Positions 60,758-64,000 of a stretch of DNA of 64,000 nt are shown here, one piece after another. The DNA lies in the NCBI RefSeq assembly GCF_002854065.1, contig NZ_CP024147.1; one strand, given 5' to 3'. The notes under the pieces are model-generated. The model was given only the letters and a program-made list of their open reading frames with translations. It was not told where the DNA came from and did not search any database. This DNA comes from Escherichia coli (lineage in GTDB: Bacteria; Pseudomonadota; Gammaproteobacteria; Enterobacterales; Enterobacteriaceae). The position numbers and the translations under genes are program-made. Numbering within the stretch: position 1 is the stretch's first letter; each line of letters starts with the position of its first letter.

Positions 60758-61240
60758 ATGACGAAGAAAAAAGCACATAAACCTGGTTCAGCGACCATCG
60801 CGCTTAACAAGCGCGCCCGTCACGAATACTTTATCGAAGAAGAGTTCGAAGCGGGACTTGCCCTGCAAGGCTGGGAAGTTAAATCCCTGCGCGCAGGAAA
60901 AGCCAATATCAGCGACAGCTACGTCCTTCTGCGTGACGGAGAGGCATTTCTGTTTGGCGCTAACATCACGCCAATGGCCGTGGCCTCCACGCATGTGGTG
61001 TGCGATCCTACCCGTACCCGCAAGTTACTTCTCAACCAGCGCGAACTGGACTCATTGTACGGTCGCGTCAATCGAGAAGGCTATACCGTAGTGGCGCTCT
61101 CCCTGTACTGGAAAAATGCCTGGTGCAAAGTGAAAATCGGCGTCGCCAAAGGTAAGAAACAGCACGATAAACGTTCAGATATCAAAGAGCGCGAATGGCA
61201 GGTGGATAAAGCGCGTATCATGAAAAATGCCCACCGTTAA
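60758..61240 (+). CDS. smpB: SsrA-binding protein SmpB
   Basis: 160-aa [48 protein letters not shown]... Confidence 0.97.
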
Positions 61241-61454: not shown

Positions 61455-61817
61455 GGGGCTGATTCTGGATTCGACGGGATTTGCGAAACCCAAGGTGCAT
61501 GCCGAGGGGCGGTTGGCCTCGTAAAAAGCCGCAAAAAATAGTCGCAAACGACGAAAACTACGCTTTAGCAGCTTAATAACCTGCTTAGAGCCCTCTCTCC
61601 CTAGCCTCCGCTCTTAGGACGGGGATCAAGAGAGGTCAAACCCAAAAGAGATCGCGTGGAAGCCCTGCCTGGGGTTGAAGCGTTAAAACTTAATCAGGCT
61701 AGTTTGTTAGTGGCGTGTCCGTCCGCAGCTGGCAAGCGAATGTAAAGACTGACTAAGCATGTAGTACCGAGGATGTAGGAATTTCGGACGCGGGTTCAAC
61801 TCCCGCCAGCTCCACCA
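61455..61817 (+). ncRNA. ssrA: tmRNA (SsrA), 363 nt
   Basis: Starts GGGGCTGATTCTGGATTCGACGGG, contains tag reading frame GCAAACGACGAAAACTACGCTTTAGCAGCTTAA (ANDENYALAA*), ends with tRNA-like ...GGTTCAACTCCCGCCAGCTCCACCA. Confidence 0.97.
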
Positions 61818-61897: not shown

Positions 61898-62020
61898 TGC
61901 CCTGAATTTGTCCCGCGAAGTCCGAAGAGAACTAATTAAATCCGAACCTTTTAGGCCCATTGATAGGCCCAACGAAAAGCTCTATTGTTTTCGTTGGGCC
62001 TAAACGCATGGAGACTCCCC

Positions 62021-63262
62021 ATGGCAAGAAAAACCAAGCCGTTAACCGATACGGAAATCAAAGCCGCCAAACCTAAAGATGCCGATTACCAGCTGTATGA
62101 TGGTGACGGGCTTACTCTGCTAATCAAGTCCAGCGGTAGTAAGCTCTGGCAGTTCCGTTACTATCGACCTCTGACCAAGCAGCGAACCAAGCAGAGCTTC
62201 GGAGCCTATCCAGCCGTCTCCCTTTCTGATGCGCGTAAACTCAGAGCTGAATCTCGAGCTTTGTTGGCGAAAGACATTGATCCTCAGGAACATCAGAAAG
62301 AACAGGTGAGAAATTCTCAAGAGGCCAAAACCAACACTTTCCGGTTAGTTGCCGAGCGTTGGTGGAATGTGAAGAAAGCCAGCGTAACAGAGGACTATGC
62401 CGACGATATCTGGCGCTCGCTTGAGAGGGATGTTCTCCCGGCAATCGGTGATATCAGTGTCACTGAGATTAAGGCTCATACTTTGGTTAAAGCAGTTCAT
62501 CCGGTTCAGGCCAGAGGTGCATTAGAGACAGTCCGCCGCCTTTGTCAGCGTATTAACGAAGTCATGATTTATGCGCAGAACACAGGCCTGATTGATGCGG
62601 TTCCCAGCGTAAACATCGGGAAAGCATTCGAGAAACCGCAAAAGAAAAACATGCCAAGCATCCACCCAGGTCAACTTCCACAGCTAATGCAGACTATGCG
62701 TACGGCAAGTATCAGCCTGTCCACACGATGCCTGTTCATGTGGCAGCTTCTCACCATCACCCGCCCTGCCGAAGCTGCTGAGGCTCGATGGGATGAGATC
62801 GATTTCGATGCTAGCGAATGGAAAATTCCAGCTGCTCGAATGAAGATGAATCGGGAGCATACGGTTCCATTATCTGATGGAGCTCTCGCTATTCTGGAAA
62901 TAATGAAGTCTCTCAGCGGTGGTCGAGAATTTATCTTTCCCAGTCGCATTAAGCCTACCCAGCCGATGAACAGCCAGACAGTAAATGCAGCCCTTAAGCG
63001 TGCTGGTTTAGGAGGCGTACTCGTTTCACACGGCTTACGTTCTATTGCCAGTACGGCACTCAATGAGGAAGGATTTCCGCCTGATGTTATTGAGGCTGCA
63101 CTTGCTCATGTAGATAAGAATGAGGTACGTCGCGCTTACAATCGAAGTGACTATCTTGAGCAACGACGACCGATGATGCAGTGGTGGGCTGATTTTGTTA
63201 AAGCAGCAGATAGCGGCAGTATCGTGAATAGTGGGGTTAGGGGAATACGTCTTGTAGGATGA
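62021..63262 (+). CDS. intA: P4-type tyrosine integrase (prophage integrase at ssrA)
   Basis: ORF 61985..63262 (TTG start) trimmed to the ATG at 62021 (MARKTKPLTDTEIKAAKPKDADYQLYDGDGLTLLIKSSGSKLWQFRYY...), 413 aa; C-terminal catalytic region with HGLRSIAST...LAH...Y. Position directly downstream of ssrA is typical of CP4-57-like islands. Confidence 0.9.
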   Translation: MARKTKPLTDTEIKAAKPKDADYQLYDGDGLTLLIKSSGSKLWQFRYYRPLTKQRTKQSFGAYPAVSLSDARKLRAESRALLAKDIDPQEHQKEQVRNSQEAKTNTFRLVAERWWNVKKASVTEDYADDIWRSLERDVLPAIGDISVTEIKAHTLVKAVHPVQARGALETVRRLCQRINEVMIYAQNTGLIDAVPSVNIGKAFEKPQKKNMPSIHPGQLPQLMQTMRTASISLSTRCLFMWQLLTITRPAEAAEARWDEIDFDASEWKIPAARMKMNREHTVPLSDGALAILEIMKSLSGGREFIFPSRIKPTQPMNSQTVNAALKRAGLGGVLVSHGLRSIASTALNEEGFPPDVIEAALAHVDKNEVRRAYNRSDYLEQRRPMMQWWADFVKAADSGSIVNSGVRGIRLVG

Positions 63263-63536
63263 ATCCTTTATCAGCACCCATTATGGGTGCTGATAACTCA
63301 CCTATAGGTAATACGGAATTTTACCCTTTGGTTTTCTTTTTTCTAGTAACCGTATTATCGAAAGCCAATTTGATACTCTCAATATTTCTTGACCAGTTTT
63401 TTATAATGGTATCTGCCAATGCATCAGGGCTCATTGTTGATATCCGATATTTTTTACTTTGATTATTAATTTCAAAATTTGGGTGATGCTGCCAACTTAC
63501 TGATTTAGTGTATGATGGTGTTTTTGAGGTGCTCCA

Positions 63537-63812
63537 GTGGCTTCTGTTTCTATCAGCTGTCCCTCCTGTTCAGCTACTGACGGGGTGGTGCGTAACGGCA
63601 AAAGCACTGCCGGACATCAGCGCTATCTCTGCTCTCACTGCCGTAAAACATGGCAACTGCAGTTCACTTACACCGCTTCTCAACCCGGTACGCACCAGAA
63701 AATCATTGATATGGCCATGAATGGCGTTGGATGCCGGGCAACCGCCCGCATTATGGGCGTTGGCCTCAACACGATTTTCCGCCATTTAAAAAACTCAGGC
63801 CGCAGTCGGTAA
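63537..63812 (+). CDS. insA: IS1 transposition regulator InsA
   Basis: 91-aa [46 protein letters not shown]... (zinc-finger + HTH); A6C slippery run TTAAAAAACTC near its 3' end. Confidence 0.93.
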
Positions 63813-64000
63813 CCTCGCGCATACAGCCGGGCAGTGACGTCATCGTCTGCGCGGAAATGGACGAACAGTGGGGATACGTCGGGGCTAAATCGCGCCAGCG
63901 CTGGCTGTTTTACGCGTATGACAGGCTCCGGAAGACGGTTGTTGCGCACGTATTCGGTGAACGCACTATGGCGACGCTGGGGCGTCTTATGAGCCTGCTG
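63731..64000 (+). CDS. insB: IS1 transposase InsB (partial, 5' part; -1 frame relative to insA)
   Basis: From ATG at 63731: [90 protein letters not shown]... open to window end. Confidence 0.8.

What the first reader, a model, noticed from the sequence alone, without database searches (positions are those of the whole stretch)
63263..63481. AT-rich segment with a reading frame that runs into the IS1 boundary
The roughly 220 bp between intA and IS1 is markedly AT-rich. On the minus strand a frame is open from the IS1 junction (63481) down to a stop at 63321-63323, encoding ...NFEINNQSKKYRISTMSPDALADTIIKNWSRNIESIKLAFDNTVTRKKKTKG*. This is what the 3' end of a gene interrupted by IS1 would look like, with its 5' part on the far side of the element. 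The plus-strand 67-aa ORF in the track (63259..63462) has no SD and is likely spurious.
Basis: seen in the sequence. Interest (0 to 1): 0.4.

Follow-up and report, generated by a model that had tools for sequence, protein, structure and literature searches.

The report
IS1-truncated tail of a yfjH gene
The AT-rich 219 bases between the integrase gene and IS1 are the dead tail, the last 52 codons, of a prophage-island gene of unknown function (a YfjH homologue) that was cut off by the insertion sequence IS1, which is an ordinary kind of gene decay in E. coli.

Summary
Bases 63263-63481 have 32% G+C against 51% for the window. The minus-strand frame 63481->63321 is real coding sequence. It is 100% identical to the last 161 nt of an intact 292-aa gene that lies convergent to intA in E. 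coli MS 115-1 and several draft genomes. Homology breaks exactly at 63481/63482, where the IS1 left inverted repeat begins. The intact protein is a homologue of K-12 CP4-57 YfjH (59% identity over 291 aa; phrog_19089). It has no Pfam domain and no informative fold match. The plus-strand 67-aa ORF has no support.

The window ends inside IS1, so this cannot be read, and I could not recover the source genome. Genomes with an identical intA show IS1 left-end junctions in the same orientation at +110, +522 and +5520 after intA (the window is at +219). In the one complete genome of this series (CUWW06), the far side of IS1 is a truncated alpha-amylase pseudogene with no target duplication, so the island was deleted. 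Predicted 5'-remnant proteins are not on record. An IS1-mediated adjacent deletion is therefore more likely (~65%) than a simple insertion (~30%). Interest is low.

The parts
61455..61817 (+). ssrA (tmRNA), the integration site of the CP4-57-like island
   Evidence: ARAGORN finds a tmRNA with tag ANDENYALAA. The layout matches K-12 and ABWA45.
62021..63262 (+). intA, the island's tyrosine integrase (413 aa), intact
   Evidence: Pfam Arm-DNA-bind_3 + Phage_int_M + Phage_integrase. It is annotated intA in RefSeq relatives. The exact protein is in 158 blocks of the gene-position index.
63268..63296 (.). Perfect 13-bp-stem, 3-nt-loop hairpin between the convergent stops of intA and yfjH. It is probably a shared transcript-end structure, and it is retained.
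   Evidence: RNA folds give z -5.4 on the + strand and -6.0 on the - strand, with 0 of 200 shuffles as good. There is no T-run, so the simple terminator scan does not call it. The only difference from MS 115-1 in the 242-bp query (63240-63481) is at 63282, in the loop.
63321..63481 (-). 3' remnant of a yfjH-family gene: stop codon 63321-63323, codons 241-292 at 63324-63479, and two bases of codon 240 at 63480-63481
   Evidence: 0 mismatches in 161 nt to the intact alleles in L001, L005, L007 and L009. phrog_19089 positions 241-292 at E 3.4e-25. The intact protein is 59% identical to K-12 YfjH, E 1e-127.
63263..63481 (.). The AT-rich segment of the finding: a 58-bp intergenic spacer with the hairpin, plus the yfjH remnant
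   Evidence: G+C is 0.324. The intact gene is itself AT-rich (0.361; K-12 yfjH 0.368).
63259..63462 (+). 67-aa ORF antisense to the yfjH remnant, judged spurious
   Evidence: No Pfam or PHROG hit. It is not annotated in RefSeq genomes with the intact allele. It was called only in 2 metagenome contigs, of which L016 carries a frameshift in yfjH and L017 ends about 20 bp before the junction site.
63482..64000 (+). IS1, first 519 of 768 bp (IRL 63482-63504; insA 63537-63812). The element should end at 64249, beyond the window.
   Evidence: 100% identical over 519 bp to the complete 768-bp IS1 of CUWW06, which RefSeq annotates as IS1B family. InsA domains are present.

Best explanation
The segment is the remnant of a CP4-57-like (P4-like) genomic island integrated at ssrA. 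After intA come a 58-bp spacer with a strong hairpin and then, on the opposite strand, the last 52 codons of the island's yfjH homologue. The left end of an IS1 element abuts codon 240. The remnant is inert. It has lost its promoter, its start codon and 82% of its coding sequence. The frame running in from IS1 has no start codon, and the only internal ATG (a 37-aa peptide) lacks a ribosome-binding site. Shown: the identity of the fragment, the exact breakpoint and the existence of intact alleles. Inferred: how the junction arose. I think the most likely route is an IS1-mediated adjacent deletion. By established knowledge of IS1 (not tested here), this is an intramolecular transposition of the left end of an IS1 already resident further along the island into the AT-rich yfjH. 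Such an event would have removed the 5' 80% of yfjH together with alpA, yfjI, yfjJ and the cargo genes, so the far side of this IS1 would not hold the rest of yfjH. My confidence that this is an IS1-truncated yfjH remnant is about 0.98. My confidence in the deletion route is about 0.65. The figure below is for the whole statement.
For: Identity and breakpoint. The best match for a 242-bp query ending at the junction (63240-63481) is MS 115-1 at 99.6%, lying under a 'hypothetical protein' convergent to intA. The three-way alignment loses homology exactly at 63481/63482. The coding stub is 100% identical to four intact alleles. YfjH homology is shown and PHROG membership. Of the 18 complete RefSeq E. 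coli genomes that match the query, 17 match it over at least 80% of its length, and only CUWW06 breaks off.

Deletion route. Among contigs that encode the identical IntA, IS1 left ends face intA at +110 (CUWW06, L013, L014), +522 (L012 plus 6 similar places) and +5520 (L007-L009). The window is at +219, and the ENA contig L015 has the same junction. All these IS1 copies are 100% identical to the window's IS1 over the part visible, and island DNA is >=99.9% identical up to each junction. In the complete genome CUWW06, the right end of the IS1 abuts an internal position of the alpha-amylase pseudogene next to glaH. The flanks are GCCAATTTG and CACAATCCA, so there is no target duplication and the island is gone. 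MS 115-1 likewise has no duplication around its IS1. The proteins predicted for a simple insertion are not on record. These are YfjH 1-242 + G (243 aa), its M48-start form (196 aa) and the 8-bp-duplication form (268 aa) for +219, and the 142-aa and 167-aa forms for the much commoner +522 junction.
Against: The far side of this IS1 lies outside the window, and I could not recover the source genome. The junction is absent from all complete RefSeq E. coli, from the species-representative genomes, from JGI metagenomes and from IMG/VR. The one other contig with the junction ends 140 nt into IS1. By general knowledge of IS1 (recalled, not tested here), simple insertion into AT-rich DNA is its commonest event, and yfjH is AT-rich. 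One relative (L010) has an IS1 in the opposite orientation at another site, so independent insertions do occur in this island. The negative look-ups depend on exact-sequence gene calls and have limited power: the 3' remnant in L012 was not called at all. The series was ascertained through an intact IntA, so deletions running into intA could not be seen. CUWW06's right flank differs from that of MS 115-1, so the ancestral position of the resident IS1 is not established.
Confidence: 0.63

Rival explanations
1. Simple IS1 insertion into an otherwise intact yfjH. IS1 transposed into the AT-rich gene and duplicated about 9 bp (CAAAATTTG). The 5' 240 codons of yfjH, followed by alpA-yfjI-yfjJ, lie directly beyond the right end of IS1 at about 64250.
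For: The left junction looks just as it would after a simple insertion. The target is AT-rich (G+C 0.27 within +-30 bp). This fits the preference of IS1 for AT-rich targets, which I recall from the literature and did not test. An opposite-orientation IS1 in L010 shows that independent insertions occur in this island.
Against: The predicted reciprocal products (243, 196 and 268 aa) are not on record, although the forward junction is on record in one metagenome. The same is true for the commoner +522 junction. Four junctions share one orientation and an identical IS1. The only complete genome of the series shows a deletion and no target duplication.
Confidence: 0.3
2. A two-step route. First a simple IS1 insertion in yfjH, then homologous recombination with a second IS1 copy elsewhere, giving a deletion if the copies were direct or an inversion if inverted. 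This leaves one hybrid IS1 whose far side is unrelated DNA.
For: The end product cannot be told apart from an adjacent deletion at the left junction. E. coli genomes carry many IS1 copies (median 10 matching places per genome). CUWW06's IS1 lacks a target duplication on both sides, which recombination would also produce.
Against: It needs two events where one suffices. No intermediate (a simple insertion at +110, +219 or +522) was found.
Confidence: 0.06
3. The minus-strand frame is a chance open frame in AT-rich spacer DNA, and the plus-strand 67-aa ORF (63259-63462) is the real gene.
For: The plus-strand ORF has an ATG and is 67 codons long. A gene caller called it in two metagenome contigs.
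Against: The minus-strand fragment matches phrog_19089 at E 3.4e-25 and is identical to the end of a 292-aa gene conserved across Enterobacterales. The plus-strand ORF has no family hit and is unannotated where the 292-aa gene is intact.
Confidence: 0.01

Closest known systems
YfjH (b2623) of the CP4-57 cryptic prophage of E. coli K-12
   Same: It holds the same position and orientation, convergent to intA and immediately before alpA in an island at ssrA. It is 59% identical over 291 aa to the intact allele of the window's gene, including the C-terminal 52 residues.
   Different: K-12 YfjH is intact and annotated 26 aa longer at the N-terminus (318 aa). The window holds only residues 241-292 of a divergent allele. 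The function of YfjH is unknown. The only functional report I found is that overexpression blocks the RcaT toxin of retron-Sen2 (bioRxiv 10.1101/2020.06.22.160242).
WP_000947284.1, 'hypothetical protein' of E. coli MS 115-1 (the same protein is in L005, L007 and L009)
   Same: It is the uninterrupted form of this very allele. The 161-nt coding stub is identical, and a 1582-bp query from upstream of intA to the junction (61900-63481) is 99.8% identical.
   Different: It is complete (292 aa) and followed by alpA, yfjI and yfjJ. In the window, IS1 replaces everything from codon 240 upward.
The intA-IS1-ygaQ locus of E. coli CUWW06 (NZ_CP182139.1)
   Same: intA and the downstream DNA are identical up to its own junction (100% over 1473 bp). 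The IS1 has the same sequence and orientation, and it also truncates yfjH.
   Different: Its junction is 109 bp closer to intA (+110, against +219 in the window), so the event was independent. Its far side is known: a truncated alpha-amylase pseudogene, with the island and ileY deleted. The window's far side is unknown.
IS1-promoted adjacent deletions
   Same: One IS1 end is joined to a series of new nearby sites while the element keeps its place and orientation, with no target duplication across the element. This matches the junction series.
   Different: For the window itself the defining feature, a non-contiguous far flank without duplication, could not be read.

Membership tests
YfjH family (phrog_19089; K-12 YfjH) | Significant sequence similarity to family members | tested here: met
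   The fragment hits phrog_19089 positions 241-292 at E 3.4e-25. The intact allele hits the full-length model at E 3.7e-201 and K-12 YfjH at 59% identity, E 1e-127.
YfjH family (phrog_19089; K-12 YfjH) | Complete coding sequence (about 290-320 aa) with its own start | tested here: not met
   Only codons 241-292 remain. There is no start codon upstream in frame. It is therefore a pseudogene remnant of a family member, not a functional member.
YfjH family (phrog_19089; K-12 YfjH) | Synteny: between intA and alpA, convergent to intA, in an ssrA-linked island | tested here: inconclusive
   The intA side is met. The alpA side lies beyond IS1 and outside the window. Relatives with the intact gene have alpA next.
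IS1 insertion sequence | Terminal inverted repeat and insA (Zn-ribbon + HTH) reading inward from it | tested here: met
   The IRL is at 63482-63504 and insA at 63537-63812, with Pfam PF03811 + PF12759. The visible part is 100% identical over 519 bp to a complete annotated IS1.
IS1 insertion sequence | Full 768-bp element with a right inverted repeat and the insAB' frameshift product | not testable with these tools
   The window ends at 64000, 249 bp short of the expected right end, and the source genome was not found.
Simple IS1 insertion | 8-10 bp direct duplication of the target on both sides, with contiguous target DNA beyond | not testable with these tools
   The far side is not in the window. 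Indirect evidence: the predicted reciprocal gene products are not on record.
IS1-mediated adjacent deletion | No target duplication, and a far flank that is not contiguous with the near flank | not testable with these tools
   It cannot be read for the window. It is met in the relative CUWW06 (flanks GCCAATTTG and CACAATCCA; island absent) and in MS 115-1.
IS1-mediated adjacent deletion | A series of junctions of one IS end, in one orientation, at different nearby sites in related genomes | tested here: met
   IRL junctions at +110, +219, +522 and +5520 all face intA, with identical IS1 sequence.

The most novel reading that the evidence does not exclude
The repeated cutting of this island inside yfjH by IS1 may not be neutral decay but selected. 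There are at least three independent junctions within 420 bp, each sparing intA and the hairpin. Removing alpA (annotated in K-12 as a transcriptional activator and, by my recollection, the activator of intA-driven excision), together with yfjH and the defence cargo, would lock the island remnant at ssrA. By my recollection, it would also protect tmRNA from the damage caused by CP4-57-type excision. A weaker variant is that the stub still yields a 37-aa peptide (M256-G292) or an IS1-driven antisense transcript that affects intA.
Probability: 0.04. Interest if true: 0.3.

Novelty: already known. Interest (0 to 1): 0.08.

Why it matters
It matters mainly for annotation. The segment should be marked as a yfjH pseudogene remnant bounded by IS1. 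Neither the 67-aa plus-strand ORF nor a 37-aa minus-strand ORF should be called as a gene. It also says something modest about the strain. Its ssrA island is degraded and, if the deletion reading is right, reduced to intA plus a stub. In that case it has lost alpA, the replication-like genes and the Type III restriction-modification cargo seen in intact relatives, and it can probably no longer excise. No open question is touched.

Tried and rejected
1. Finding the source genome or any contig that crosses this IS1. The junction was searched in complete RefSeq E. coli, species-representative genomes, JGI metagenomes and IMG/VR, and none had it. An exact look-up of the 37-aa stub ORF found one ENA contig (L015) with the same junction, but it ends 140 nt into IS1. 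A look-up of the 67-aa plus-strand ORF found only a contig with a frameshifted yfjH and a short contig that ends before the junction.

2. Testing for a simple insertion by looking up the predicted 5'-remnant proteins. All five were negative: three forms for +219 and two for +522. This is suggestive, not decisive.

4. A second metagenome scan for the reciprocal junction was considered and not run. The forward junction is absent from that collection, so a negative result would carry no information.

5. Chance ORF and real plus-strand gene: rejected.

Full report
**What is in the sequence**

The end of the window reads as follows:
- smpB at 60758-61240.
- ssrA (tmRNA) at 61455-61817.
- A tyrosine integrase, intA, at 62021-63262, with Pfam Arm-DNA-bind_3, Phage_int_M and Phage_integrase.
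- 219 bp of AT-rich DNA at 63263-63481.
- The left end of IS1 from 63482 (GGTGATGCTGCCAACTTACTGAT), with insA at 63537-63812.

The window stops at 64000, 519 bp into an element that is 768 bp long in relatives.

The 219 bp have G+C 0.324 against 0.509 for the window, and only 0.16% of 219-bp windows are as low.

It stays open for 30 more codons inside IS1 and is then closed by a stop. It contains no start codon before the ATG at 63434. The one correction is that the authentic fragment is 52 residues, not 49.

**What it is**

A 242-bp query ending at the junction (63240-63481) matches 18 of the 5426 complete RefSeq E. coli genomes. Seventeen of them match over at least 80% of its length. The best is MS 115-1 at 99.6%.

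In those genomes the DNA lies under a 292-aa 'hypothetical protein'. The gene is convergent to intA and is followed by alpA, a YfjI-family gene and a gene annotated as inovirus Gp2 family, which occupies the position of yfjJ in K-12.

A three-way alignment shows that homology between the window and the uninterrupted alleles ends exactly at 63481/63482. The 161-nt coding stub is identical, with 0 mismatches, to the intact gene in MS 115-1 and in three other assemblies. The stub corresponds to residues 241-292 plus two bases of codon 240.

The intact protein is 59% identical over 291 aa to K-12 YfjH, the gene in the same position of the CP4-57 cryptic prophage. It matches phrog_19089 end to end, and the 52-aa fragment alone matches positions 241-292 of that model at E 3.4e-25.

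The fragment is therefore the 3' remnant of a yfjH-family gene, cut at an IS1 end.

The plus-strand 67-aa ORF (63259-63462) is antisense to this remnant. It has no family hit and is unannotated wherever the 292-aa gene is intact.

**What the intact gene does**

This remains unknown.
- There are no significant Pfam, NCBIfam or PADLOC matches and no PDB sequence relative.
- Only 34 clusters of homologues were found, and those that carry an organism name are Enterobacterales.
- An AlphaFold model built on 20 sequences is confident (pLDDT 81.5) and mostly helical.
- In the literature held here, K-12 yfjH appears as an uncharacterised prophage gene. One screen reports that its overexpression blocks the RcaT toxin of retron-Sen2.

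**How the junction arose**

The window cannot show this. I could not find the source genome or any contig that crosses the element:
- The junction is absent from complete RefSeq E. coli, species-representative genomes, JGI metagenomes and IMG/VR.
- One ENA metagenome contig (L015) has the identical junction but stops 140 nt into IS1.

The relatives are informative. Contigs that encode the identical IntA carry island DNA >=99.9% identical to one another, and they show IS1 junctions at several places. The positions below are bases after the intA stop.

| Position | Carriers | IS1 end and orientation |
|---|---|---|
| +110 | CUWW06 and two drafts | left end facing intA |
| +219 | the window and L015 | left end facing intA |
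| +522 | L012 and six similar places | left end facing intA |
| +5520 | L007-L009 | left end facing intA |
| about +2960 | L010 | opposite orientation |
| +5245 | MS 115-1 | left end facing intA, but a divergent IS1 (93% identical) |

The first four share an IS1 sequence identical to the window's over the part visible.

One island without any of these IS1 copies (L005) continues into a Type III restriction-modification system.

In the one complete genome of the same-orientation series, CUWW06, the right end of IS1 abuts an internal position of the alpha-amylase pseudogene next to glaH. There is no target duplication, and the whole island and ileY are missing. MS 115-1 also has no duplication around its IS1.

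By established knowledge of IS1 (not tested here), this is the pattern that IS1-promoted adjacent deletions produce. One end of a resident element is joined to successive nearby targets, while the element keeps its position and orientation.

A simple insertion would leave a 5' fragment with its native start. For +219 that would be YfjH 1-242 + G with a 9-bp duplication. I looked up that product, its M48-start form and the 8-bp-duplication form, and also the two corresponding products for the much commoner +522 junction. None is on record. These negatives have limited power, because the look-up needs an exact gene call.

My estimates are about 65% for adjacent deletion, about 30% for simple insertion, and a few per cent for insertion followed by IS1-IS1 recombination.

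**Consequence**

In either case the remnant is inert. It has no promoter of its own and no start codon in the frame entering from IS1. Upstream of the internal ATG the sequence is TATCGGATATCAACA, which contains no Shine-Dalgarno motif.

A perfect 13-bp hairpin (63268-63296) between the two convergent stop codons is retained. It may still serve as the end of the intA transcript, although the simple terminator scan does not call it because there is no T-run.

**Comparison with what is known, and verdict**

This is an IS-truncated pseudogene in a decaying P4-like island at ssrA. It is a well-known kind of feature in E. coli, and the gene involved is a recognised but uncharacterised prophage gene family. 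Nothing about the anatomy is unusual.

The only mildly notable point is how often IS1 has cut this one AT-rich gene in near-identical islands. Three of the junctions follow (A/T)TTTG. Ascertainment through an intact IntA explains why no deeper deletions were seen.

Interest is low.

Noticed in passing
window 63268-63296: A perfect 13-bp stem with a 3-nt loop lies between the convergent stops of intA and the yfjH remnant (z about -5.4 and -6.0 on the two strands). There is no T-run on either side. The only difference from MS 115-1 in the 242-bp query (63240-63481) falls in the loop, at 63282.
   Followed up: partly
L004:9473, L012:11764, window 63481, L007:16762, L010:14204, L001:17268: There are six different IS1 junctions within about 5.5 kb of near-identical islands. 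The three inside yfjH all follow (A/T)TTTG (CCAATTTG, AAAATTTG, TGATTTTG). This suggests a local IS1 target preference in this AT-rich gene.
   Followed up: partly
L005:14998-21242: The IS1-free form of the island carries cargo. There is a Type III methyltransferase (PADLOC MTase_III, E 1.6e-274) and an 856-aa ResIII/YagJ protein with weak Type III restriction-enzyme matches. There is also a 512-aa protein with weak SIR2-like similarity in its C-terminal part. In L007-L009, IS1 sits at +5520, about 100 bp from the 3' end of the res-like gene.
   Followed up: partly
L004:9474-11654 (CUWW06) versus L001:17269-21276 (MS 115-1): In CUWW06 the IS1-linked deletion also removed the tRNA-Ile gene (ileY position) and the 5' part of the alpha-amylase pseudogene. 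The right end of its IS1 joins an internal amylase position.
   Followed up: partly
L001:1-10419, L004/L006:1-9636, L007, L008, L010, L012: Several relatives have a second element, a P2-like or lambdoid prophage with its own integrase, inserted between ssrA and intA. This is tandem occupancy of the ssrA site. The window has none, and intA follows ssrA directly.
   Followed up: no
L016:905-918: A metagenome contig has a 1-bp deletion in the A8/T8 run of yfjH, which frameshifts the gene. It could be genuine decay by another route or an assembly error.
   Followed up: partly
L011:11829-11888: Contig L011, from NCBI assembly GCA_025621125.1, stops inside yfjH at +646 with no IS sequence visible. 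This may mark yet another repeat junction in the gene.
   Followed up: no
window 61985-62020: The mechanical ORF for intA starts at a TTG 36 nt upstream of the ATG at 62021 that RefSeq relatives and gene callers use. The ATG form (413 aa) is the one on record.
   Followed up: no
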